Shown here piece by piece: positions 1-40,168 of a DNA stretch of 40,168 nt; position 1 is the first letter of the stretch; each line of letters begins with the position of its first letter. Source of the DNA: Przondovirus KP32i192. Both the position numbers and the translations under genes were made by a program. The stretch lies in the sequence record OZ035748.1; one strand, 5' to 3'. Below the pieces are notes generated by a model, which saw only the letters and a program-made list of their open reading frames with translations, made no database searches and was not told the origin of the DNA.

Positions 1-26
1 ACTGGAAGAAAGCTAATAAGGAGTAA
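1..26 (+). CDS. Holin (T7 gp17.5-like), 3' end of the gene that begins at 39991; window is a circular permutation
   Basis: Bases 1-26 read tgg aag aaa gct aat aag gag taa in frame with the ORF running off the window end at 40168; joined product is 67 aa and ends WKKANKE like T7 gp17.5. Confidence 0.75.
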
Positions 27-29
27 CAT

Positions 30-287
30 ATGGACCTGATTAAGTTCCTCGAAATGTTAGACACTGAGATGGCTCAGCAGATGCTCATGGACCTGAAGAA
101 CCCAGAGAAGCGAACCCCTCAGCTGTACAACGCCATTGGTAAACTACTGGAGCGCCATAAGTTCCAAATCTCTAAGCTGACCCCTGACGTTAACATCTTG
201 GGCGGACTGGCTGAGGGTCTGGAGGCTTACAACTCCAAGGTGGGTGCTGATGGTCTGACAGACGACGATAAGTTCACCCTACAGTGA
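30..287 (+). CDS. Terminase small subunit / DNA maturation protein A (T7 gp18-like)
   Basis: 85-aa ORF; strong similarity to recalled T7 gp18 (FLEMLDT..AQ.ML.DL...PQLYNAI.KLL.RHKFQI.KL.PDV.ILGGLA...GLTDDD); RBS aaggag upstream. Confidence 0.85.
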   Translation: MDLIKFLEMLDTEMAQQMLMDLKNPEKRTPQLYNAIGKLLERHKFQISKLTPDVNILGGLAEGLEAYNSKVGADGLTDDDKFTLQ

Positions 288-326
288 TATACTCAAGGTA
301 CTACTATATGTAGTGCCTTTATGGAT
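288..326 (+). promoter_or_regulatory. RNase III-type processing hairpin (R18.5-like)
   Basis: ctcAAGGTACTACtatatGTAGTGCCTTtatg: 10-bp stem with one G-U pair, flanked by conserved ctcaagg / cctttatg motifs shared with four other sites in the window. Confidence 0.55.
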
Positions 327-383
327 GTCATTGCACTACGCTAGGCGTTCCTACGTGAAATCTGAGAAACAACGGGAGGCATT

Positions 384-830
384 ATGCTGGAGTTCACAAA
401 GAGAATCGTCCCGTATCTTGTGGCTATCATGGTGTTTGCCTTCGGGTGGCACTTGGGTTCGCAATCTACGGACGCTAAATGGAAGGAGGAAGTACAGAAT
501 GAGTACGTTAAGAAGCAAACGGCTAGAGCTGAAACTCAGAAAGCGATTGACGCAGTATCGGCTAAGTACCAAGCAGACCTTGAGGGGCTGGAGGGCAGCA
601 CTGATAGGGTTATTGCTGATTTGCGTAGCGACAATAAGCGGCTGCGCGTCAGAGTCAAACCTACCAGTGTCACCGCAGGACCAGACGGTCGATGCCTCGT
701 TGATGGTTCCGTCGAACTACACGAAGCAACTGCTCGAAGTCTTATCGCAATAACCCAGAAGGCCGACCTCAAAGAGAAGGCCCTACAGGACACTATTCGC
801 AAGCTACAGAGGAAAGGAGGTGAACATTGA
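384..830 (+). CDS. i-spanin (Rz-like, T7 gp18.5-like)
   Basis: 148-aa ORF with N-terminal TM segment; near-identical blocks to recalled T7 gp18.5 ([31 protein letters not shown]). Confidence 0.85.
499..753 (+). CDS. o-spanin (Rz1-like, T7 gp18.7-like) embedded in +1 frame inside the i-spanin gene
   Basis: Internal Met of the 313..753 ORF; product MSTLRSKR...[19 protein letters not shown] has signal peptide plus lipobox (ISGC) and matches recalled T7 gp18.7. Confidence 0.7.
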   Translation: MSTLRSKRLELKLRKRLTQYRLSTKQTLRGWRAALIGLLLICVATISGCASESNLPVSPQDQTVDASLMVPSNYTKQLLEVLSQ

Positions 831-2584
831 GTAACTCTCAGCAAGCCAAGAACGCCTTAATCATTGCGCAACTGAAGGGTGACTTTGTCGCCTTTCTCTT
901 CGTGCTCTGGAAGGCCCTGAACCTGCCGGAACCAACCAAGTGTCAAATCGACATGGCCAAGTGCCTGGCGAACCCAAAGAACAAGAAGTTTATCCTTCAG
1001 GCTTTCCGTGGTATCGGGAAGTCATTCATCACGTGTGCGTTCGTAGTGTGGACCCTTTGGCGTGACCCTCAGTTAAAGATACTGATTGTCTCAGCCTCAA
1101 AGGAACGTGCGGACGCTAACTCCATCTTCATCAAGAACATCATCGACTTGTTGCCTTTCCTGAGTGAGCTTAAGCCTCGCCCCGGTCAGCGTGACTCCGT
1201 GATTAGCTTTGATGTAGGCCCTGCCAAGCCGGACCACAGCCCGTCAGTTAAGTCTGTGGGTATTACGGGTCAGCTTACTGGTAGCCGTGCCGATATCATC
1301 ATTGCGGATGACGTGGAGATTCCCGGTAACTCTGCGACTCAAGGTGCTCGTGAGAAACTCTGGACGCTGGTTCAGGAGTTCGCTGCACTGTTGAAACCCC
1401 TGCCGACTAGCCGTGTTATCTATCTGGGTACCCCTCAGACCGAGATGACGCTCTACAAGGAACTTGAGGACAACCGTGGGTACTCCACCATCATTTGGCC
1501 TGCGCAGTATCCTCGCTCCAAAGAGGAAGACCTGTACTATGGCGACCGACTGGCACCGATGCTCCGCAGTGAGTACGATGAGGACAAAGAGGGTCTCAGC
1601 AGCCAACCTACCGACCCGGTTCGATTCGACTCCATGGACCTTCAGGAGCGTGAGGTGGAATACGGTAAGGCTGGCTACACGCTTCAGTTCATGCTCAACC
1701 CGAACCTTAGTGACGCCGAGAAGTATCCTCTACGCCTCCGTGACGCTATCGTGTGCGGTCTACAGATGGACAAGGCCCCAATGCATTACCAGTGGTTGCC
1801 GAATCGTCAGAACCGCAATGAGGAGCTTCCTAACGTGGGCATGAAGGGTGACGAGATTTACTCATTCCATACGGCATCCAGTAACACTGGTACGTATCAG
1901 GGTAAGATTCTGGTCATCGACCCAAGTGGTCGCGGTAAGGATGAGACTGGCTGGTGCGTACTGTACACCCTCAACGGCTACATCTACCTGATGGACGCTG
2001 GCGGCACTCGCGGTTACGAAGAGAAGTCCCTTGAGTTCCTCGCTAAGAAAGCAAAACAGTGGCAGGTTCAGACTGTGGTCTTCGAGAGTAACTTCGGTGA
2101 CGGTATGTTCGGTAACGTCTTCCAGCCTGTGCTCCTGAAGCATCACCCAGCGCAGCTCGAAGAGATTCGTGCTCGTGGTATGAAAGAGGTACGTATCTGC
2201 GATACCCTTGAGCCTGTACTGGCAAGTCACCGCTTGGTCATCCGCGATGAGGTAATCCGACAGGACTACCAGACGGCACGGGACGCAGACGGTAAGCACG
2301 CTCTGAAGTACAGCCTGTTCTACCAGATGACCCGTATGAGCCGTGAGAAGGGTGCTGTGGCACACGATGACCGACTTGATGCATTAGCATTGGGTGTCGA
2401 GTTCCTACGCTCTACGATGCAGCAGGACGCTGTGAAGATAGAGGCTGAGGTACTTCAGGAGTTCTTGGAGCACCACATGGAGAAGCCCCTGAGTAACATC
2501 TCCCAGTTCCGGGTCACCAGTAGCAACGGTGTGGACATCCGATGGGAAGACGACGGGGACGACTCTATGTTCATCGCATGGTGA
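827..2584 (+). CDS. Terminase large subunit / DNA maturation protein B (T7 gp19-like), TTG start
   Basis: 585-aa ORF collinear with recalled T7 gp19 ([25 protein letters not shown], ATPase and nuclease blocks); start is TTG 6 nt after aaggagg. Confidence 0.9.
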
Positions 2585-2664
2585 TTATGCAAGGATTGTG
2601 CATAAGGATTCATTAGGCCACGGAAGGCCACTTTGAGGAAACTCCATGTATAACAGACACTTGG

Positions 2665-2687
2665 AATTAGGGCACACTATAGGGAGA
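2665..2687 (+). promoter_or_regulatory. Phage RNAP promoter (phiOR-like, right end)
   Basis: AATTAGGGCACACTATAGGGAGA, full match to the window consensus; +1 G at 2682. Confidence 0.75.
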
Positions 2688-2828
2688 GACCCTTGAAGAC
2701 TTACTATAAGACAACTTAAAGATTCATTCATATAGTTATTCACTTTAAGTCTCCTTAAAGGTAGAGGGTAGTGATGATAATATCACCCTCTCACTACAAG
2801 ACACTAAGAGCCAACATAAGGAGGACCT

Positions 2829-2978
2829 ATGCGCTTATTGTTAACCTTACTGCGCCATAGGACTACTTGGCGATTTCTGCTGGTACTTGCTGGTGCCCTT
2901 GGGGCTTCACTGGTTACTCAGCAGCAACTCAGTGGACTGGAGACTCTCGTGTGCTCTCTACTCACTTGTAGCGATTAG
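2829..2978 (+). CDS. Small hydrophobic protein (gp19.5-like by position)
   Basis: 49-aa ORF with aaggagg RBS 8 nt upstream; hydrophobic; lies between terminase gene and genome end as gene 19.5 does in T7. Confidence 0.4.
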   Translation: MRLLLTLLRHRTTWRFLLVLAGALGASLVTQQQLSGLETLVCSLLTCSD

Positions 2979-3039
2979 GGTCTTCCTGACGCGCTAGGGA
3001 TTCCGTAGTGATGCTTATCAGCATACACCACTCCATCCC

Positions 3040-3440
3040 TCTATAGTCAATACTTAAAGTTAACCTTAGGTGATTCACTGGGTCTACCTACGGGTCTATG
3101 CACTGACCTGAGGACTACCTGAGGTTACCTTTAAGAATTTTACATAAAGTTCTGAGTGTACATCTCACAGTTTACACTTTTGGTCATCCCCCCCGGTACC
3201 CCTCCAGTTCACCCAAAGTAACCATGGGTACCCCCCTCTTTACCTTCAGTTTAACCTTGGGTGGTACCTTGGGAGTCCTTAGGTGATACTATATGTTGTG
3301 GTGTGGGTGACCTGAGGATACTATATGTTGATGTCTCTGTGTCCCTATCTGTTGGCCCTCTTTAAGTATCCACTGAGTACCACCTGAGGTTAGACCTGAG
3401 GTAATACCGGAGACCATATACCTTAGGTTAACCATGCGGC
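3040..3440. repeat. Array of short CCT(T/G)(A/G)GG heptamer repeats flanking the terminal-repeat region
   Basis: At least 9 copies of ccttagg / cctgagg / ccttggg, plus a 20-bp imperfect direct repeat (ccttaggtgatactatatgttg at 3277-3298, cctgaggatactatatgttg at 3311-3330); analogous to the short repeats near T7 genome ends. Confidence 0.5.
3163..3350. repeat. Putative direct terminal repeat (single collapsed copy) with predicted physical left end near 3163
   Basis: TCTCACAG at 3163-3170 matches the recalled T7 left-end sequence; TCTCTGTGTCCCTATCTGTT at about 3334-3353 matches the conserved block near the inner edge of the T7 terminal repeat; boundaries inferred. Confidence 0.35.
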
Positions 3441-3492
3441 CATCTGGTGAGTCATCACTATAGGGCTATTGGTGGTCATTGTCAATCAATCC

Positions 3493-3515
3493 TATTAGGA
3501 CACACTATAGGGAGA
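3493..3515 (+). promoter_or_regulatory. Phage RNAP promoter (phiOL-like, left end)
   Basis: TATTAGGACACACTATAGGGAGA; +1 G at 3510. Confidence 0.65.
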
Positions 3516-3594
3516 CACTTAAAGTATTACTTAGGGACCATCACCATAAAGATCACCATCACTATAGGTCTAACTAAAAGTTTAACTTTAAGTG

Positions 3595-3623
3595 TTGACA
3601 TTCAGATTCCGTTATGAGACATT
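3595..3623 (+). promoter_or_regulatory. Candidate host sigma70 early promoter (A1-like)
   Basis: -35 TTGACA (3595-3600), 17-bp spacer, weak -10 GACATT (3618-3623); position and flanks resemble T7 A1. Confidence 0.35.
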
Positions 3624-3726
3624 AGCAACCGTTGAGAGACACAACGCTACCAACCACTAGCATACTTCGAGTTATCTGGTTAGACTGATGGTCTCAAGTA
3701 GTCATCAACCGGACATACGAAAGTGG

Positions 3727-3755
3727 TTGACTCAACGATGAATAAGTAGTAAGAT
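3727..3755 (+). promoter_or_regulatory. Host sigma70 early promoter (A2-like)
   Basis: -35 TTGACT (3727-3732), 17-bp spacer, -10 TAAGAT (3750-3755); same hexamers as recalled T7 A2. Confidence 0.55.
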
Positions 3756-3854
3756 GCACCACAGATTCACGAAGTACCGCTAGGCAACTAGCATTGCTCT
3801 TTAACAATATGGATTAGTCAAGCTGATATGTACACCATGATAATAGTGTTTAAC

Positions 3855-3925
3855 TAGTGGTTACATTCAGGTCTCTGGCAAGGTACGTCCTGTCACCCTG
3901 AGAGTAGCCACAATGATAACCACTA
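3855..3925 (+). promoter_or_regulatory. Candidate long-range stem-loop in gene 0.3 leader (R0.3-like)
   Basis: TAGTGGTTA (3855-3863) is perfectly complementary to TAACCACTA (3917-3925), 9-bp stem enclosing 53 nt, immediately upstream of the gene 0.3 RBS. Confidence 0.3.
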
Positions 3926-3946
3926 ATCAACTGAAGGATATACATT

Positions 3947-4414
3947 ATGATTTTCACGAAAGAACCAGCCAACAAAGTATTCGTATTTGTTACTGCATAC
4001 CGTGGCCATGAGTCGCAGGAAGTAAACGAGAAGATGCTCAAGGGTCTCATTAAGACCATTCGCACCTATCCGGGAGCATACGGCAACATTCGTGATGAAC
4101 ATGTACAGGGCTGCTTTAAAGAAGCTGGTATGCCTGAGGCAACGCAAGAGCGCACGCTTAAAGTTGAGTGTACTGAGAAGCAAGCCGCAGAGTTGACGTG
4201 GCTGGCCTGTAAGACCTACTCGCAAGATGCTGTGCTGGTGGTGAACTCACAGACCCATACAGCCGCGCTATGGTCTATCACAAGCGTGGGAGAGTATCCG
4301 CAAGCATTTCCGATGCTCAAAGAGGATGCACTAGGTGGCACGCTGCAACAAGTGGACGCACCAAAGGGCGAATGCTATTCAAGCATCGACGGGCAATACT
4401 GGGAGGTGGTCTAA
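3947..4414 (+). CDS. SAM hydrolase/lyase (T3 gp0.3-like SAMase), anti-restriction
   Basis: 155-aa first early gene; N-terminus MIFTKEPA..VFVFV and overall collinearity with recalled T3 SAMase; not Ocr-like (not acidic). Confidence 0.7.
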   Translation: MIFTKEPANKVFVFVTAYRGHESQEVNEKMLKGLIKTIRTYPGAYGNIRDEHVQGCFKEAGMPEATQERTLKVECTEKQAAELTWLACKTYSQDAVLVVNSQTHTAALWSITSVGEYPQAFPMLKEDALGGTLQQVDAPKGECYSSIDGQYWEVV

Positions 4415-23197: not shown

Positions 23198-24151
23198 ATG
23201 GCTGGCGAATCTAACGCAGACGTATACGCATCCTTCGGTGTTAACAGTGCTGTACTGACTGGTAGTACACCTGAGGAGCACCAAGAAAACATGTTGGCTC
23301 TTGATGTTGCTGCCCGTGATGGCGATGATGCAATCGAGCTGAACACCAACAGTGATGACCCGTATGGCTCCGATGTGGACCCGTTCGGTGAACCTGAAGA
23401 GGGCCGTATGCAGGTCCGTATCTCCGCTGACGGTTCAGATGAACAGGACGGCGAAGAGGGTTCTGAAGAAGAACAGCAGGGCGACGAAGGGAGTCAGCCG
23501 GAGGAAGTAACCGATGAAGGTGAACCTGAAGAGTTCAAACCTATTGGTGAAACTCCGGCTGACATCAACGAAGCCTCTCAGCAGCTGGAAGAACACGAAG
23601 CTGGCTTTAACGACATGGTTGCTACTGCAATCGAACGCGGTCTCTCACAGGATGCTGTGACCCGTATTCAGCAGGAGTACCAGAACGAAGATAGTTTGTC
23701 CGATGAATCTTACCGAGAGCTGGCCGAGGCTGGTTACAGCAAGGCGTTCGTCGATGCGTACATTCGTGGTCAGGAAGCTCTGGTCAACCAGTACGTAGAG
23801 AAAGTGATGGACTTCGTGGGAGGCCGTGAGCGCTTCCAGCAGGTATACAGCCACATGAAGACCAATAACCCTGAGGGTGCCGAGGCGCTCATCAAGGCGT
23901 TTGAGTCTCGTGATGTAGCCACCATGAAGACGATTCTGAACCTAGCGGGACAGTCTCGTGATAAAACCTTTGGTAAGAAAGCCGAGCGCTCTATTGCCAA
24001 GCGCGCAACCCCAGCGAAACCTGCTCCCCGCAAGGCTGTAGGCTTCGAGTCTCAAGCTGAGATGATTAAGGCGATGTCCGACCCGCGCTACCGCACCGAT
24101 TCTAAGTATCGTCGTGAAGTAGAGCAAAAGGTAATCGACTCAACGTTCTAA
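23198..24151 (+). CDS. Capsid assembly / scaffolding protein (T7 gp9-like)
   Basis: 317-aa product from ATG after aaggag; MAGESNADVYASFGVNSAV and C-terminal MIKAMSDPRYRTD match T7 gp9; acidic. Confidence 0.9.
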   Translation: MAGESNADVYASFGVNSAVLTGSTPEEHQENMLALDVAARDGDDAIELNTNSDDPYGSDVDPFGEPEEGRMQVRISADGSDEQDGEEGSEEEQQGDEGSQPEEVTDEGEPEEFKPIGETPADINEASQQLEEHEAGFNDMVATAIERGLSQDAVTRIQQEYQNEDSLSDESYRELAEAGYSKAFVDAYIRGQEALVNQYVEKVMDFVGGRERFQQVYSHMKTNNPEGAEALIKAFESRDVATMKTILNLAGQSRDKTFGKKAERSIAKRATPAKPAPRKAVGFESQAEMIKAMSDPRYRTDSKYRREVEQKVIDSTF

Positions 24152-36059: not shown

Positions 36060-38393
36060 ATGGACCAAGACATTAAAACAGTCATTCAGTACCCAGTAGG
36101 GGCCACTGAGTTCGACATCCCGTTCGACTACCTGTCCCGCAAGTTTGTCCGCGTGTCGTTGGTGTCAGACGACAACCGCAGACTGCTGAGCAACATCACT
36201 GAGTACCGCTACGTGTCTAAGACCAGAGTGAAACTGCTGGTAGCAACCACTGGTTTCGACCGTGTAGAGATTCGTCGGTTCACATCTGCGTCAGAGCGAG
36301 TGGTGGACTTTAGTGACGGTTCTGTATTACGCGCCAACGACCTTAACGTCTCACAGCTGCAATCTGCACATATCGCCGAAGAAGCACGCGATGCGGCACT
36401 TCTGGCAATGCCGGAGGATGATGCTGGCAACCTAGACGCCCGTAACAGAAAGATTGTTCGACTGGCTCCCGGAGAGACTGGTACAGACGCTGTCAACAAG
36501 AATCAACTGGACACAACCTTAGGTGAGGCTGGCGGTATTCTCAGTGAAGTTAAGGACCTCCAGAAAGACATTGAGGATTACCTACAGAACTGGGGAGATG
36601 ACACCACAGCTATTCGCGGCGTTCTCTGGGTATACAACCAAGGGTCCGCAGTGGGCGGTGAGACCTCCTTCGTGATTACCAAAGAGGGGCCTGTCCTTGC
36701 GGTTCCGTACATCGAGATTAACGGCAGCCGTCAATACCGTGGGTGGCACTACGAGTATGACTTAGGGTCCAAGACAATCACGCTGGCGAAACCGCTTTCT
36801 GCTGGGGATTTGGTCGTATGCACCACCGCTGAGACTACACTGCCACTGGCGGATTCACTCGCAGGTCCGACTGGTGCTTCTCAGATTGGTACCGCCAACG
36901 GGCTGAATGTACAGATTGCACTGGACAATCTACGCTCAGGGGTTAACGTTCTGGACTTTATGACCTTTGCTGAGCGAGCCGCTGTCCTGAACTACACAGG
37001 AACCAATGACAACTCTGAGGCATTCCGAAAGGCATTCGCCACCGGGACACGCCAAATAATTGTCCCTCCGGGAAGATATCACGTAAAAGACGTTGTAATA
37101 CCCGCTAAGGTGAAACTGTTTGGTACGTACTCCTACAAGCCTTATAACGTGACAAGTGATGCATCCTTTGGTACAGACGGTACGATTATTCGTAAAGTGG
37201 CTGGCGCAGATAACATGTTTCTGTGGAATACTGCATGTGCCGCTGAGGGTGTGATGTTCGATGGTCGTGACCGCACGTCCCCAGCCATTCAGTCACAGTC
37301 TGGTGGTAAAATAACTGTAGGGTTCTTCAAGTGCGGGTTCTATCGCTTCGACCGAGTAGGTAACCGCCGGGGCGCATACATCGGGTGCTCCTTCCAGTTC
37401 TGTAACTTCAACCAGAACAACATTGGGATTTACAATACGGTAGATGGGAACCACATCGGGTGTACCATCAACGCCAACAAGTCCCACGGTGTTATGCTCG
37501 AAACAGGCGCGAACTCCAACACGTTCACTAACTGTCGAAACGAGTGGAACGAAGGTGACAACTGGAACTTCTACGGTGCTACTTCGATTCAGGTAATCAA
37601 CGAACTGTGCGACCGTGCGTTCGGCTATGGGTTCCGTATCAGCAACTCCTCGGTGACACTGATTAACGTCAACATTAGGCGTTCTGCGAGAACAGCCGCA
37701 TCGGGGGCAGCAAGCGCTCAGATTTACTTTGAGTCGTCTACCCTCAAGATGATTGGGGTGAACAGCTCCGTGGGCGGTGATGACACTGGCGGTTCTATCA
37801 CTGAGCCTTCGCCTGATTACTTCTTCAGGATGGCAGGTACCAGCGAGGGTCGCCTTGAGATTAGTGACAGTCGCCTCACAGGCTATACTGTTGGGCTAAT
37901 CTCGGGTACAGCACGTCCTTCAGTTATCCGTGTGATAAACTCTCCGGGTTGGGAGGACACGATTAACGAGGGGGTCGCTCGCATATCAGGAGGCAGGCCG
38001 TACATTGGTACAATGCCAACAGCGACTGGTCCGGCAAACGTTAGCCCAGCTGTATTGGGACTGTCCTGTGGTGGAGTAAACACCTACGATAACGACATGT
38101 TTGATATTCACCTGACTATCCGAAATACCAATAACGGAGGCCATAATGGTGCAATCCTCACTGTGTTGCTTTACCGTGAGGGCGGAGCCGCTCGTGCGAC
38201 AATCGTACGAGTAGACAGTCGGTCCAATGCCGTGGGTGAGGGAGATGTGAATAGCACCTCAGCAGACCCTCAGCAGACCTATCAAGTGTCCGTGGAGGTT
38301 ACGTCAAACGATGCGTCTACTTTCAACCTACTGGTCTCCACCAAGTCGGACAACAACGCATCCTACCGCTTCAGGGCGAAAGTTAAACCATAA
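36060..38393 (+). CDS. Tailspike / tail fiber: T7 gp17-like N-terminal anchor fused to a beta-helix (capsule depolymerase-like) domain
   Basis: First ~150 aa match T7 gp17 N-terminal domain (FDIPFDYLSRKFV...RLVDF.DGS.LRA.DLNV.Q); the rest is unrelated to T7 and has a pectate-lyase-like motif (LDFMTFAERAAVLNYTGTNDNSEAFRKAFATG...IIVPPGRYHV) and Gly/Asn/Ser/Thr-rich repeats. Confidence 0.8.
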   Translation: MDQDIKTVIQYPVGATEFDIPFDYLSRKFVRVSLVSDDNRRLLSNITEYRYVSKTRVKLLVATTGFDRVEIRRFTSASERVVDFSDGSVLRANDLNVSQLQSAHIAEEARDAALLAMPEDDAGNLDARNRKIVRLAPGETGTDAVNKNQLDTTLGEAGGILSEVKDLQKDIEDYLQNWGDDTTAIRGVLWVYNQGSAVGGETSFVITKEGPVLAVPYIEINGSRQYRGWHYEYDLGSKTITLAKPLSAGDLVVCTTAETTLPLADSLAGPTGASQIGTANGLNVQIALDNLRSGVNVLDFMTFAERAAVLNYTGTNDNSEAFRKAFATGTRQIIVPPGRYHVKDVVIPAKVKLFGTYSYKPYNVTSDASFGTDGTIIRKVAGADNMFLWNTACAAEGVMFDGRDRTSPAIQSQSGGKITVGFFKCGFYRFDRVGNRRGAYIGCSFQFCNFNQNNIGIYNTVDGNHIGCTINANKSHGVMLETGANSNTFTNCRNEWNEGDNWNFYGATSIQVINELCDRAFGYGFRISNSSVTLINVNIRRSARTAASGAASAQIYFESSTLKMIGVNSSVGGDDTGGSITEPSPDYFFRMAGTSEGRLEISDSRLTGYTVGLISGTARPSVIRVINSPGWEDTINEGVARISGGRPYIGTMPTATGPANVSPAVLGLSCGGVNTYDNDMFDIHLTIRNTNNGGHNGAILTVLLYREGGAARATIVRVDSRSNAVGEGDVNSTSADPQQTYQVSVEVTSNDASTFNLLVSTKSDNNASYRFRAKVKP

Positions 38394-38403
38394 GGAGAAC
38401 CAC

Positions 38404-39978
38404 ATGTTAGACAGACTGAATCAGCCGAAAGGCTCAACCATTGGTGTGCTCAAGGATGGGCGCACTATCCAAGAGGCTATTGATGACTTGTATGTGTTTA
38501 AGGATTCTCAAGGATTCATAAACGTGGACATGCAGACTGGTGCCACCCTTGAGGAGAAGCTGCGCAATTCTTTTACGATAGCCAATACGCTACTTGTGGG
38601 CGTACGCCTGACGGCTGGTAAGGTATACCCGCTGACTGGCACAACTCCGCTTGAGGTGAACCTAGCTAAGTTCTCGCTGTTCACTTCAGGAGGCCGTGCT
38701 ACGATTGACGCCTCAGAGTTCACTGGGCCGACTGCGTTGTGGATTCACGCCACAGGCTCCTATCCGACACCCATGTATCGAAACACGACCAACTACATGG
38801 AGTCCATCGAGCTTGTGGGTGGGCTTAAGGCTGGCGTCGACGGGTGGACTTGGGGTAACCGTGGGATGACCACCGGAACCGAGTACAACGGTCAGTGTAT
38901 AATCCGTGGGTGCAGCGTTTACAAGTTCGACAACTGCATCAAATGTACTGACTCGTCTTGGCGCTACAAGGTATCTGACTGCATGATCTCTACGGGAATC
39001 ACCTCTGTGTTCAACGCCCCTGCTGGACTGATTGACTCCGGCGAGTCCATAACCTTCAGCGACACTCAGTTCTCCGACTCGAACGGGGCTAAGTTCATCA
39101 TTGCGTGTGCAAACTTCAGTGTAGGCATGTCCGGCACAAGTGTGCTCAATACCCCGGTTGTTATCTCTGGGAATGGTGCTTCACTGCTCATCGACGGCAT
39201 GGGGAACAACGAGAACCCCGGTAAAACTTCTTGGATGCGCTACGTCGAGGTGACTGGAATCGGAGCACGCTTCATCCTACAGTCCTCAACGCTCGTGTGT
39301 AACGGCCCATCTTCTCAGACCAGACCGCTTGTGCTTGTTGGGGCGAAAGCTCGCGCAATCTTCATTGCCGTCAAGTTCCCCGGTAACCTCTATATGTTCC
39401 ATGTGAATAACCCAGAGAAGGTGCGAACATTCTGTGAAGGCGAGGGTATCGTTAAGACAATCGCGTGTACATACGACATTGAATCGGGGGCTGGTAACAT
39501 TCCAGTCCACCGCTCACTTAACCGATTCTACAATAACGGGTTCGAGCAGGACTTGGCTGGATGGGCGCTTAACGTTGGTGGCGACCCAGCACAGACGGCT
39601 ACAATCGTCACGGATGATACCAACAGCGGTGGTAAGGCGGTTAAGGTTGCCTCTCTGGATGGTAAGAGTGTGTTCCTTACCCAGAATGTCAGAGTGTCTT
39701 CTGGAGAGGAGTTTGCATCGTTCGTGGCCTACAAGGTCAATAAGGCGGCATCCGGCTCAACACCGGGTAACCTGACAGTAACCTTTAAGTCCGAGAATGG
39801 TACCACTATCGGTACAGGCTCGACGTCTAACTTCTCGAACACTGTCGGGGCGTGGCAGCAAGGTGGCCTGTTCTGCCGAGGCGTTGCCCCAGTAGGTGCT
39901 GTATCCGCTGAGATATCTCTCCGTGTTCGTGATGGTGCTGAGGTTATCCTTGATGACGTTATCGTAAACTTCTTGTAA
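38404..39978 (+). CDS. Second tailspike / receptor-binding protein lacking the gp17 anchor domain (putative second depolymerase)
   Basis: 524-aa product from ATG with taaggag RBS 10 nt after gp17 stop; no T7 counterpart; Gly/Thr/Ser/Asn/Val-rich composition suggests beta-rich fold. Confidence 0.6.
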   Translation: MLDRLNQPKGSTIGVLKDGRTIQEAIDDLYVFKDSQGFINVDMQTGATLEEKLRNSFTIANTLLVGVRLTAGKVYPLTGTTPLEVNLAKFSLFTSGGRATIDASEFTGPTALWIHATGSYPTPMYRNTTNYMESIELVGGLKAGVDGWTWGNRGMTTGTEYNGQCIIRGCSVYKFDNCIKCTDSSWRYKVSDCMISTGITSVFNAPAGLIDSGESITFSDTQFSDSNGAKFIIACANFSVGMSGTSVLNTPVVISGNGASLLIDGMGNNENPGKTSWMRYVEVTGIGARFILQSSTLVCNGPSSQTRPLVLVGAKARAIFIAVKFPGNLYMFHVNNPEKVRTFCEGEGIVKTIACTYDIESGAGNIPVHRSLNRFYNNGFEQDLAGWALNVGGDPAQTATIVTDDTNSGGKAVKVASLDGKSVFLTQNVRVSSGEEFASFVAYKVNKAASGSTPGNLTVTFKSENGTTIGTGSTSNFSNTVGAWQQGGLFCRGVAPVGAVSAEISLRVRDGAEVILDDVIVNFL

Positions 39979-39990
39979 CACGGAGGTATC

Positions 39991-40168
39991 ATGTTATCCC
40001 TAGACTTCAACAACGAAGTTATCAAGGCGGCTCCCATTGCGGGGGTCGCTGGGGCTGATGGCGTAGCGAGGCTCTTCTGGGGCCTCTCACTCAACGAGTG
40101 GTTCTACGTCGCGGCAATCGCCTACACAGTGGTTCAGATTGGTGCCAAGGTAGTCGACAAAATCATTG
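39991..40168 (+). CDS. Holin (T7 gp17.5-like), 5' part; continues at window positions 1-26
   Basis: MLSLDFNNEVIKAAPIAGVAGADGVARLFWGLSLNEWFYVAAIAYTVVQIGAKVVDKII nearly identical to recalled T7 gp17.5; ORF runs off the window end. Confidence 0.8.
   Translation, partial: MLSLDFNNEVIKAAPIAGVAGADGVARLFWGLSLNEWFYVAAIAYTVVQIGAKVVDKII

What the first reader, a model, noticed from the sequence alone, without database searches (positions are those of the whole stretch)
2585..3946. Genome-end region: collapsed terminal repeat, predicted physical end near 3163, and heptamer repeat array
The 1.36-kb non-coding stretch between terminase and gene 0.3 contains TCTCACAG at 3163 (matching the recalled T7 left terminus), a conserved block TCTCTGTGTCCCTATCTGTT near the inner repeat edge, and at least nine CCT(T/G)(A/G)GG heptamers plus a 20-bp direct repeat. 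This implies the true linear genome is the window plus one extra terminal-repeat copy, about 0.2 kb longer, and that the heptamers are concatemer-processing or packaging signals (inference).
Basis: partly seen in the sequence, partly recalled or inferred. Interest (0 to 1): 0.45.

Follow-up and report, generated by a model that had tools for sequence, protein, structure and literature searches.

The report
Collapsed T7-type terminal repeat junction
This stretch is the ordinary, already well-described genome-end region of a T7-like Klebsiella phage (genus Przondovirus), which the assembler joined into a circle with only one copy of the 184-bp terminal repeat, so the real virion DNA should start at base 3163 and be about 184 bp longer.

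Summary
The sequence features are real. TCTCACAG is at 3163, TCTCTGTGTCCCTATCTGTT is at 3334-3353, and there are ten same-strand CCTKRGG heptamers in 3064-3427 (0.35 expected). One claim fails: the stretch is not wholly non-coding, because it holds gene 19.5 (2829-2978).

The window is a circularly permuted Przondovirus genome (K11/KP32-like), opened inside the holin gene. Aligned to phage K11, whose ends are annotated, window 1-3346 stops exactly at K11's right end. Window 3163 onward starts exactly at K11's left end.

The terminal repeat is therefore 3163-3346 (184 bp), present once in the window. The virion genome is predicted to be about 40,352 bp.

The conserved block is the last 13 bp of the repeat plus ATCTGTT (3347-3353). 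That heptamer is the class II pause signal of the phage RNA polymerase at the T7 concatemer junction.

The whole T7 junction toolkit is present:
- promoters phiOR and phiOL
- the hairpin inverted repeat
- short-repeat arrays
- host promoters
- an RNase III hairpin

The heptamers are the local version of T7/T3's CCTAAAG repeats. They are conserved as a motif, but no function has been shown for them.

Interest is low. The practical consequence is that the record should be re-opened at 3163 and the repeat restored.

The parts
827..2584 (+). Gene 19, terminase large subunit (left boundary of the region; context)
   Evidence: phrog_38, E=4e-129. Collinear with K11 gene 19.
2665..2687 (+). Phage-RNA-polymerase promoter phiOR (K11-type 23-bp promoter; +1 at about 2682)
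   Evidence: Exact match to the window's own promoter consensus ATTAGGGCACACTATAGGGAGA. There are 10 such sites in the window, all on the + strand, against 0 expected. Aligns to the annotated phiOR of K11, 40503-40525.
2829..2978 (+). Gene 19.5 (49 aa), a conserved small gene inside the supposedly non-coding stretch
   Evidence: ORF listed. phrog_2193, E=2e-22. 59% identity to T7 gp19.5. K11 annotation.
2996..3040 (.). Imperfect inverted repeat AGGGATTC...CATCCCT, homologous to the T7 and T3 inverted repeats left of the terminal repeat; candidate hairpin site for repeat duplication
   Evidence: Inverted repeats found in the window, in T7 (centred at nt 39588) and in T3. Folds as DNA at -8.4 kcal/mol, z=-3.1, with the same architecture as T7 and T3. 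The outer arms and the following TAGAGTCAA are conserved across genera.
3049..3139 (.). Second inverted repeat (23-nt arms at 3049-3071 and 3117-3139, 87% complementary) enclosing the right-end heptamers
   Evidence: DNA fold -14.9 kcal/mol, z=-3.7. Lies in the 97-99% conserved block.
3064..3124 (+). Right-end short-repeat array (equivalent of T7 SRR): heptamers at 3064, 3107 and 3118
   Evidence: All three are invariant in 13 of 13 aligned Przondovirus junctions.
3123..3162 (+). Conserved left flank of the repeat: GGTTACCTTTAAGAATTTTACATAAAGTTCTGAGTGTACA, immediately before the cut that makes the left end
   Evidence: Pattern TT(T)AA.AAT.T..CA.AAA..TCTGA.TG...A|TCTCA.AGT is shared with T7 and T3. 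97-99.5% conserved among 13 relatives.
3163..3346 (+). Terminal repeat, single collapsed copy (184 bp; 185 if the next A is counted, as in the Oda and Saitama records). The predicted physical left end is base 3163. The predicted right end is a second copy ending ...GTGTCCCT.
   Evidence: Alignment end points against K11. Left-end and right-end alignments with K11, Oda, Saitama and K30. Exact repeat lengths in reference records: K11 181, Oda 181, Saitama 181, T7 160, T3 231. Unique in the window.
3255..3317 (+). Heptamers inside the repeat (3255, 3267, 3277, 3311), together with the roughly 20-bp direct repeat CCTKAGG(TG)ATACTATATGTTG at 3277-3298 and 3311-3330
   Evidence: Relatives swap CCTTGGG, CCTTAGG and CCTGAGG at the same positions, so the motif is kept.
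3347..3353 (+). ATCTGTT, the class II pause/termination signal of the phage RNA polymerase ('concatemer junction' signal), starting at the first base after the repeat
   Evidence: The only ATCTGTT on either strand of the window. It sits at the same position relative to the repeat end in T7, T3 and K11. K11 annotates 180-188 as 'concatemeric junction'. Signal definition from bioRxiv 10.1101/2021.01.11.426313 and 10.64898/2026.02.12.705533.
3383..3427 (+). Left-end short-repeat array (equivalent of T7 SRL): heptamers at 3383, 3395 and 3421
   Evidence: Copy number varies from 2 to 4 among relatives through gain or loss of 12-13-nt units.
3457..3485 (-). Leftward sigma-70-like promoter TTGACA-17-TATAGT (11 of 12), a possible analogue of T7/T3 promoter A0
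   Evidence: Consensus scan. The same elements are present in K11 with an 18-nt spacer. T7 and T3 A0 annotations. Inference only.
3493..3515 (+). Phage promoter phiOL
   Evidence: One mismatch to the promoter consensus. Aligns to the annotated phiOL of K11, 479-501.
3595..3631 (+). Host RNA polymerase early promoter 1 (homologue of K11 581-617)
   Evidence: K11 annotation plus alignment. The -35 element is TTGACA. The -10 is weak and was not picked up by the consensus scan.
3727..3763 (+). Host RNA polymerase early promoter 2 (TTGACT-17-TAAGAT; homologue of K11 715-751)
3844..3925 (+). Long RNA hairpin upstream of gene 0.3, a likely RNase III site (R0.3)
   Evidence: RNA fold -30.8 kcal/mol, z=-2.7. 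3845-3904 is 99% conserved in 13 relatives. T3 annotates R0.3 at the equivalent place.
3947..4414 (+). Gene 0.3 (T3-type SAM hydrolase family), the right boundary of the region
   Evidence: phrog_2226, E=1e-47. K11 gene 0.3.

Best explanation
The window is a complete genome of a T7-like Klebsiella phage (Przondovirus, K11/KP32 group). The assembler circularised it and opened it arbitrarily inside the holin gene.

Region 2585-3946 is therefore the concatemer junction: the right genome end, one copy of the exact direct terminal repeat (3163-3346, 184 bp), and the left genome end. Virion DNA should run from 3163 around the circle to 3346. It would carry the repeat at both ends and be about 40,352 bp long.

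By homology with T7 and T3, the junction most likely works as follows:
1. Phage RNA polymerase transcribing rightward (from phiOR at 2665-2687 and from upstream promoters) crosses the repeat and pauses at the class II signal ATCTGTT (3347-3353), immediately beyond the repeat.
2. The paused polymerase-lysozyme complex helps terminase (gp18/gp19) with a prohead to engage the junction and cut after ...GTGTCCCT, which creates a right end.
3. The extremely conserved 130 bp left of the repeat (3035-3162) acts as the terminase loading (pac) region. It contains three invariant heptamers, an inverted repeat and the flank of the left-end cut site.
4. The imperfect palindrome at 2996-3040 allows a hairpin-primed copy of the repeat to be made, so that both neighbouring genomes receive one.
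5. The second cut, before TCTCACAG (3163), creates the left end.

The CCTKRGG heptamers are the Przondovirus version of T7/T3's CCTAAAG arrays. They are often spaced about one helical turn apart and are probably phased protein-binding or DNA-bending sites that assist these steps.

Shown here: the positions, homology, conservation and uniqueness of every element. Inferred from T7/T3 biology: every mechanistic step, and any function at all for the heptamers.
For: - Whole-genome collinearity with K11. Window 40168 joins window 1 at K11 37838/37839. Window 3346 corresponds to K11's last base and window 3163 to K11's first base.
- K11 annotates the terminal repeats, the 'concatemeric junction', phiOL, phiOR, host promoters and gene 19.5 at the homologous places.
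- The first 22 nt at the left end are identical in K11, Oda, Saitama and K30, and the right ends finish ...GTGTCCCT(A).
- 12 IMG/VR contigs start with TCTCACAGTTTA.
- In T7, T3, K11 and the window, ATCTGTT starts at the first base after the repeat. It is unique in the window.
- ATCTGTT is the strictly conserved class II signal found at the T7 concatemer junction.
- The polymerase-lysozyme complex pauses there and interacts with gp18/gp19 to start maturation (PMC3276506, citing Zhang and Studier 2004).
- T7-type terminase subunits are encoded just upstream, and gp18 is 72% identical to T7 gp18.
- The hairpin inverted repeat is conserved in T7, T3 and the window.
- Conservation profile over 13 junctions: 3035-3184 is 97-99.5%, the repeat interior about 75%, and the terminase coding sequence about 92%.
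- The heptamers are about 30-fold enriched, strand-specific, conserved as a motif, and occupy the same three zones as T7/T3's CCTAAAG.
- Przondovirus repeats of 180-183 bp have been validated by primer walking, and they are known to collapse or land mid-contig in short-read assemblies (PMC10438801).
Against: - No reads or virion DNA are available, so the ends and the doubling of the repeat are predicted by homology, not observed for this phage.
- The repeat interior is the least conserved part (about 75-85%, with indels), so only its two boundaries are well anchored.
- The last base is ambiguous by 1 nt. K11, T7 and T3 end CCCT, while the Oda and Saitama records end CCCTA.
- Pausing of a K11-type RNA polymerase at ATCTGTT has not been shown here.
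- The pac and hairpin roles rest on T7/T3 experiments that I recall (Chung and Hinkle 1990; Chung, Nardone and Hinkle 1990; Dunn and Studier 1983) but could not read in the held library.
- No experiment known to me assigns a function to the heptamer arrays, even in T7.
Confidence: 0.88

Rival explanations
1. The genome has fixed ends and a terminal repeat, but this phage's boundaries differ from the homology-based prediction. The repeat could be longer, shorter or shifted by more than a base or two.
For: The repeat interior diverges, with indels, between relatives. Repeat length varies across the T7 group: 160 bp in T7, 181 in K11 and 231 in T3. Records disagree by 1 nt at the right end.
Against: Both boundaries sit in the best-conserved motifs. 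The 22 nt at the left end are invariant, and GTGTCCCT|ATCTGTT is conserved even in T7 and T3. All Przondovirus repeats measured so far are 180-183 bp with these same edges (PMC10438801).
Confidence: 0.07
2. The heptamers are not packaging or processing signals. They could serve another purpose (replication origin or priming context, recombination between genome ends, DNA bending for ejection). Or they could be selectively neutral products of slippage in a non-coding region.
For: No published function, to my knowledge. Copy number in the left-end array drifts between 2 and 4 among close relatives, and the copy at 3267 is poorly conserved. The consensus differs between genera even though gp18 is 72% identical. 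In the PMC3276506 text read, the left-arm elements listed for T3 and the steps given for maturation make no mention of any short-repeat element.
Against: Substitutions preserve the motif CCT-K-R-GG at several positions, and the three right-end copies are invariant in 13 of 13. The array is strictly on one strand, and in T7, T3 and here it is tied to the junction and found nowhere else in the genome at that density.
Confidence: 0.3
3. The genome really is circular or circularly permuted (headful packaging), and the resemblance to T7 ends is a relic with no fixed termini.
For: The window closes on itself with no repeat at its ends.
Against: The terminase is of the T7 type. The genome is collinear at 90-97% identity with K11, which has annotated ends. 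Relatives have experimentally validated fixed repeats (PMC10438801). All junction elements, including a unique class II pause signal, are intact. Circular closure with a single repeat copy is the documented assembler artefact.
Confidence: 0.02

Closest known systems
Klebsiella phage K11 (NC_011043) genome ends: terminal repeat, 'concatemeric junction', phiOR, gene 19.5, phiOL
   Same: Same genus and the same order of elements. The right arm (window 1-3346) is 97% identical and ends at K11's last base. The left terminus is identical for 22 nt. ATCTGTT lies directly after the repeat. The right-end heptamers are at identical offsets of -99, -56 and -45.
   Different: The repeat is 184 bp here and 181 bp in K11, and the interior has indels and substitutions (about 84% identity over repeat plus left flank). 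K11 has two inserts absent here: K11 279-427, and K11 896-1119, which carries an extra small ORF before gene 0.3.
Bacteriophage T7 concatemer junction (160-bp terminal repeat, SRL/SRR short repeats, CJ class II pause site, phiOR/phiOL, hairpin inverted repeat near nt 39588)
   Same: Left end TCTCACAGT. Right end ...TCTCTGTGTCCCT followed by ATCTGTT. Conserved flank TCTGAGTG...A before the left cut. An AGGGATTC...CATCCCT palindrome left of the repeat. Same-strand heptamer arrays left of, inside and right of the repeat. Gene 19.5 between phiOR and the repeat.
   Different: The T7 heptamer is CCTAAAG, spaced about 13 bp apart, whereas here it is CCTKRGG, spaced 10-12 bp. The repeat is 160 bp in T7 and 184 bp here. 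The palindrome is 190 bp from the repeat in T7 and 145 bp here. T7 gene 0.3 is Ocr, whereas here it is a SAM-hydrolase-type protein. The promoters have K11 specificity.
Bacteriophage T3 (NC_003298) redundant terminal repeat, 231 bp
   Same: The same boundary motifs (TCTCATAGT at the left, GTGTCCCT|ATCTGTT at the right). The same palindrome. A T3-type gene 0.3. An R0.3 RNase III site before gene 0.3. A leftward A0 promoter near the left end.
   Different: The repeat is longer, the heptamer is CCTAAAG, and the promoters are T3-specific.
Przondoviruses Oda, Tokugawa and Saitama (OQ579023-OQ579032), with direct terminal repeats validated by primer walking
   Same: Repeats of 180-183 bp with the same first 22 nt and the same last 25 nt. 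This is the same assembly problem described in that paper, in which repeats are deleted or end up mid-contig.
   Different: Those records carry both repeat copies and start at the physical end. This window carries one copy and starts inside the holin gene.

Membership tests
T7-type (Studiervirinae) exact direct terminal repeat / concatemer junction | The left terminus is homologous to experimentally determined or annotated left ends | tested here: met
   Window 3163-3184 is identical (one T/C difference at nt 23) to base 1 onward of K11, Oda, Saitama and K30. The K11 alignment starts at K11 base 1. 12 IMG/VR contigs start with TCTCACAGTTTA.
T7-type (Studiervirinae) exact direct terminal repeat / concatemer junction | The right terminus ends ...GTGTCCCT, and in the concatemer the unique left-end sequence follows it | tested here: met
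   The alignment to K11 ends at K11's last base, which corresponds to window 3346. T7, T3, K11 and Oda share the motif.
T7-type (Studiervirinae) exact direct terminal repeat / concatemer junction | The repeat is physically present at both ends of virion DNA (double coverage, fixed read starts) | not testable with these tools
   Only the assembled sequence is available, and the repeat occurs once in it. This needs reads or virion DNA.
T7-type (Studiervirinae) exact direct terminal repeat / concatemer junction | T7-type small and large terminase genes (18 and 19) are encoded next to the right end | tested here: met
   phrog_1351 (E=4e-42) and phrog_38 (E=4e-129). gp18 is 72% identical to T7 gp18.
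T7-type (Studiervirinae) exact direct terminal repeat / concatemer junction | Phage promoters phiOR to the left and phiOL to the right of the repeat, both pointing rightward | tested here: met
   2666-2687 (0 mismatches) and 3494-3515 (1 mismatch) to the window's own promoter consensus. Homologous to the K11 annotations.
T7-type (Studiervirinae) exact direct terminal repeat / concatemer junction | An imperfect palindrome left of the repeat (the hairpin site in T7) | tested here: met
   2996-3040 is homologous to the T7 inverted repeat centred at 39588 and to the T3 inverted repeat. Formation of a hairpin intermediate was not tested.
T7-type (Studiervirinae) exact direct terminal repeat / concatemer junction | Arrays of short same-strand repeats flanking and inside the repeat (SRL/SRR) | tested here: met
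   10 copies against 0.35 expected. They occupy the same three zones as CCTAAAG in T7 and T3. The consensus differs (CCTKRGG).
Class II pause/termination signal of T7-like RNA polymerases | The strictly conserved heptamer ATCTGTT in the non-template strand, preceded by A, C or T | tested here: met
   ATCTGTT at 3347-3353, preceded by T at 3346, on the + (non-template) strand and unique in the window. Definition.
Class II pause/termination signal of T7-like RNA polymerases | The polymerase pauses or terminates 6-8 nt downstream, and the pause is needed for concatemer maturation | not testable with these tools
   This needs in vitro transcription with the K11-type polymerase, and phage genetics. 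It is known for T7 only.
Genus Przondovirus | Genome-wide collinearity and high nucleotide identity with K11/KP32-type phages, and K11-type promoters | tested here: met
   Mostly 89-97% identity to K11 along the genome; the repeat and left-end segment is 84%, and 36695-39981 gave no K11 alignment. 96.5-96.9% identity to KP32 isolate 192 and Raoultella phage P25a over 24 kb. 10 K11-type promoters.
Headful (pac) packaging with circular permutation | No fixed ends, and a terminase related to the P22, T4 or SPP1 types | tested here: not met
   The terminase is of the T7 type. Relatives have fixed, validated ends. Permutation of virion DNA itself cannot be tested without reads.

The most novel reading that the evidence does not exclude
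The same-strand heptamer arrays may be phased binding sites for the small terminase (gp18) or for the terminase-polymerase complex. Their genus-specific consensus (CCTKRGG in Przondovirus, CCTAAAG in T7 and T3) would then form part of a recognition code that sets packaging specificity between co-infecting T7-like phages. On this reading, the ultra-conserved 150 bp spanning 3035-3184 would be the actual pac site. The function of these repeats has, to my knowledge, never been established, even in T7.
Probability: 0.2. Interest if true: 0.4.

Novelty: already known. Interest (0 to 1): 0.1.

Why it matters
The main consequence is for curation. The record is a circular permutation with one repeat copy missing. 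It should be re-opened at 3163, with bases 3163-3346 appended after the base that now precedes 3163. The holin gene split by the current ends would then be intact, and the genome would become comparable with K11-type references, at a predicted length of about 40,352 bp.

Correct ends matter in three practical ways:
- taxonomy, where identity thresholds are calculated over the full genome length
- engineering or rebooting therapeutic Klebsiella phages from synthetic DNA
- finding the cis-acting signals needed for packaging

Biologically, the region adds no new kind of element. The comparative data do pick out two things that could guide a functional test of a four-decade-old unexplained T7 feature. 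One is the 150-bp block (3035-3184), which is more conserved than the terminase gene. The other is the motif-level conservation of the heptamers.

Tried and rejected
- An Rfam scan of 2400-4100 at E<=1 gave only a chance snoRNA hit at 20 bits against a gathering score of 55. No known RNA family accounts for the region.
- The sigma-70 and terminator consensus scan found 4 promoter-like sites against 2.5 expected, so the scan alone is uninformative. The host-promoter assignments rest on the K11 annotation and alignment instead.
- TCTCACAG as an 8-mer is not diagnostic, because there are three + strand copies. Only the extended 22-mer and the alignment end points are.
- Literature searches for pacB, SRL/SRR and CCTAAAG found no open-access paper describing what the short repeats do. 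The phiYeO3-12 genome paper (PMC95087) is not held. Statements about Dunn and Studier 1983, the Chung and Hinkle 1990 papers, and right-to-left packaging are therefore from my own recollection.
- I considered that the roughly 20-bp repeat or the CACTATAGG fragments (3453-3468 and 3557-3572) might be extra phage promoters. I rejected this because they lack the upstream specificity region and do not match the 22-nt consensus within 3 mismatches.
- The composition profile shows only the expected AT-rich non-coding dip.
- I considered headful or circular genome structure and rejected it (see the rival explanations).
Full report
**What is in the sequence**

- TCTCACAG is at 3163-3170.
- TCTCTGTGTCCCTATCTGTT occurs once, at 3334-3353.
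- CCT(T/G)(A/G)GG occurs ten times between 3064 and 3427, all on the + strand and none on the - strand. An eleventh copy lies at 2897.
- The rest of the 40-kb window holds 23 + strand copies and 15 - strand copies.
- In 5000 dinucleotide-preserving shuffles of 3040-3440 the mean count was 0.35 (sd 0.58, maximum 3). The Poisson probability against the genomic rate is 1.5e-13.
- The '20-bp direct repeat' is CCTTAGGTGATACTATATGTTG (3277-3298) against CCTGAGGATACTATATGTTG (3311-3330). The exact shared core is 14 nt.

One descriptive claim is wrong. The stretch is not entirely non-coding, because 2829-2978 is a 49-codon ORF. This ORF matches phrog_2193 at E=2e-22, is 59% identical to T7 gp19.5, and is annotated as gene 19.5 in phage K11. 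In addition, the 8-mer TCTCACAG recurs at 23643 and 36349, so it is not diagnostic on its own.

**What the window is**

The region matches about 500 phage records, mostly Klebsiella phages. Over 24 kb the closest genomes are KP32 isolate 192 and Raoultella phage P25a, at 96.5-96.9% identity.

Against the fully annotated K11 genome (NC_011043, genus Przondovirus) the window is collinear, at mostly 89-97% identity. The repeat and left-end segment (3163-3428) is lower at 84%. About 3.3 kb (36695-39981) gave no K11 alignment in that call.
- Window 39982-40168 corresponds to K11 37652-37838, and window 1 corresponds to K11 37839. The two ends of the window therefore join seamlessly inside gene 17.5, the holin.
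- Window 1-3346 aligns to K11 37839-41181 and stops exactly at K11's last base.
- A second alignment starts at window 3163, which corresponds to K11 base 1.

The window is thus a circularised assembly that was opened at an arbitrary place and carries a single copy of the terminal repeat.

**The terminal repeat**

K11 annotates terminal repeats at 1-180 and 41001-41181. The exact repeated length I measured is 181 bp in K11, 181 in Oda, 181 in Saitama, 160 in T7 and 231 in T3.
- The left ends of K11, Oda, Saitama and K30 all begin TCTCACAGTTTACACTTTTGGT, identical to window 3163-3184.
- The right ends finish ...GATGTCTCTGTGTCCCT, with one more A in the Oda and Saitama records, matching window ...3346 (or 3347).
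- In a scan of IMG/VR for the conserved block, 12 contigs begin with TCTCACAGTTTA. T7-type contigs begin TCTCACAGTGTA.

The repeat is therefore 3163-3346, which is 184 bp, or 185 by the Oda convention. It occurs once in the window, and the virion genome is predicted to be about 40,352 bp.

Elek et al. (PMC10438801) report Przondovirus repeats of 180-183 bp, validated by primer walking for Oda and Tokugawa. [quoted passage not shown] The P-SSP7 study makes the same point for T7-like phages in general (PMC3350473).

**What the conserved block is**

In T7, T3, K11 and the window, the repeat ends ...GTGTCCCT and the next seven bases are ATCTGTT. In the window this heptamer is at 3347-3353. It is preceded by T and is the only ATCTGTT on either strand.

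ATCTGTT is the strictly conserved core of class II pause/termination signals for T7 RNA polymerase. It must be preceded by A, C or T, and its natural instance is the T7 concatemer junction (bioRxiv 10.64898/2026.02.12.705533 and 10.1101/2021.01.11.426313). K11's record marks the same bases as 'concatemeric junction'.

**The rest of the anatomy**

From left to right:
- **phiOR (2665-2687).** An exact copy of the window's 22-nt promoter consensus. There are ten such sites, all on the + strand, against none expected.
- **Gene 19.5 (2829-2978).**
- **An imperfect palindrome, AGGGATTC...CATCCCT (2996-3040).** T7 has its homologue centred at nt 39588 and T3 has one too, with the same predicted DNA hairpin architecture. 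I recall from Chung, Nardone and Hinkle 1990 that a hairpin end forms at about this T7 position during concatemer processing. I could not read that paper here.
- **A second inverted repeat (3049-3071 and 3117-3139)** enclosing the right-end heptamers.
- **A flank conserved across genera,** TT(T)AA.AAT.T..CA.AAA..TCTGA.TG...A, directly before TCTCA(C/T)AGT.
- **The repeat itself,** with four heptamers and the internal direct repeat.
- **The pause signal.**
- **Three left-end heptamers (3383-3427).**
- **A leftward sigma-70-like promoter (3485 to 3457, 11 of 12 matches).** It resembles promoter A0 of T7 and T3.
- **phiOL (3493-3515).**
- **Two host promoters,** homologous to those annotated in K11.
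- **A long RNA hairpin (3844-3925)** at the position of T3's RNase III site R0.3.
- **Gene 0.3 (3947-4414),** of the T3 SAM-hydrolase type.

Rfam adds nothing.

**Conservation**

I aligned 13 junction-spanning sequences: the window, 11 IMG/VR loci and a reconstructed K11 junction. They are 76-93% identical overall. The profile along the region is as follows.

| Segment | Identity |
|---|---|
| 3035-3184 (130 bp left of the repeat plus its first 22 bp) | 97-99.5% |
| Adjacent terminase coding sequence | about 92% |
| Repeat interior, 3185-3244 | about 75% |
| Repeat end plus pause site | 93% |
| 3845-3904 (RNase III hairpin) | 99% |

I recall that T7 packaging runs right to left and that required sequences (pacB) lie at the right genome end. 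If so, the ultra-conserved block is the natural candidate for the terminase loading site. That is an inference.

**The heptamers**

At the aligned positions:
- The three right-end copies are invariant in 13 of 13 sequences.
- The copies at 3255, 3277 and 3311 switch among CCTTGGG, CCTTAGG and CCTGAGG while keeping the motif in 12-13 of 13.
- The left-end array gains and loses 12-13-nt units, giving 2-4 copies.
- The copy at 3267 is poorly conserved.
- Each relative carries 8-12 copies, almost all on the + strand.

T7 and T3 have the same arrangement, left of, inside and right of the repeat. Their heptamer is CCTAAAG, spaced about 13 bp apart. These are the SRL/SRR short repeats that I recall from Dunn and Studier 1983.

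Spacings here are 43, 11, 137, 12, 10, 34, 72, 12 and 26 bp, so neighbouring copies often sit about one helical turn apart. This pattern suggests selection on a degenerate motif, as expected for phased protein-binding or bending sites. I found no paper in the held library that assigns them a function.

**Most likely mechanism**

The steps are inferred from T7 and T3; the elements themselves are shown here.
1. Concatemers carry one repeat per junction.
2. Rightward transcription from phiOR and upstream promoters crosses the repeat and pauses at ATCTGTT.
3. Terminase with a prohead engages the conserved right-end block and cuts after ...GTGTCCCT.
4. The palindrome at 2996-3040 allows a copy of the repeat to be synthesised, so that both neighbouring genomes receive one.
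5. A cut before TCTCACAG makes the left end.

**Rivals**

- The boundaries are shifted in this particular phage (0.07).
- The heptamers serve a different function, or none (0.3).
- The genome is truly permuted or circular (0.02). This is contradicted by the T7-type terminase, by the validated ends in relatives, and by the intact junction signals.

**Verdict**

The feature is already known and is annotated in K11, T7 and T3, so interest is low.

Its value is practical. The record should be re-opened at 3163 and the 184-bp repeat restored, which would also heal the split holin gene. The only open biological question it touches is the unexplained role of the short-repeat arrays in T7-like phages.

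Noticed in passing
window 39982-40168 joined to 1-26: The window's two ends split gene 17.5 (holin). Joined, they read as one continuous 67-codon ORF, contiguous with K11 37652-37864. The assembly was therefore opened at an arbitrary point inside a gene.
   Followed up: yes
window 3035-3184: This non-coding block (130 bp left of the repeat plus its first 22 bp) is 97-99.5% identical across 13 Przondovirus junctions. That is higher than the neighbouring terminase coding sequence (about 92%) and far above the repeat interior (about 75%). It is a candidate terminase loading (pac) site.
   Followed up: partly
window 3457-3485 (- strand): A near-consensus leftward sigma-70 promoter, TTGACA-17-TATAGT, points into the terminal repeat. 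The same elements occur in K11 with an 18-nt spacer. It resembles the leftward promoter A0 annotated in T7 and T3.
   Followed up: partly
window 3428-3446 and 3904-3926, versus K11 (L003) 279-427 and 896-1119: K11 carries two inserts that this phage lacks. One is about 150 bp between the left-end heptamers and phiOL. The other is about 225 bp before gene 0.3; I read it as carrying an extra small ORF. The 23 nt of window 3904-3926 align to both K11 873-895 and 1120-1142, so the insert is bounded by a repeat.
   Followed up: no
window 3947-4414: Gene 0.3 belongs to the T3-type SAM-hydrolase family (phrog_2226; labelled 'SAM-dependent methyltransferase' in databases). It is not the T7 Ocr DNA mimic.
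   Followed up: partly
window 3163-3170 and 3334-3346: The two predicted termini carry CACAG in inverted orientation a few bases from each end. The left end reads TCTCACAG..., and the right end, read from its own end, reads AGGGACACAGAGA... This may be a shared element at the two terminase cut sites.
   Followed up: no
window 3453-3468 and 3557-3572: Two copies of CATCACTATAGG(G/T)CTA flank phiOL. They look like promoter cores without the upstream specificity region and do not match the promoter consensus within 3 mismatches.
   Followed up: partly
window 3844-3925: A stable RNA hairpin (-30.8 kcal/mol) just upstream of gene 0.3, with 3845-3904 99% conserved among relatives. It sits at the position of the RNase III site R0.3 annotated in T3.
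   Followed up: partly
window 3079-3096: Two copies of GGGTC lie within CTGGGTCTACCTACGGGTCTATG, which is invariant in K11, Oda and Saitama. As I recall, GGGTC is a T7 primase recognition sequence. They sit between the right-end heptamers. The primase link is from memory and was not tested.
   Followed up: no
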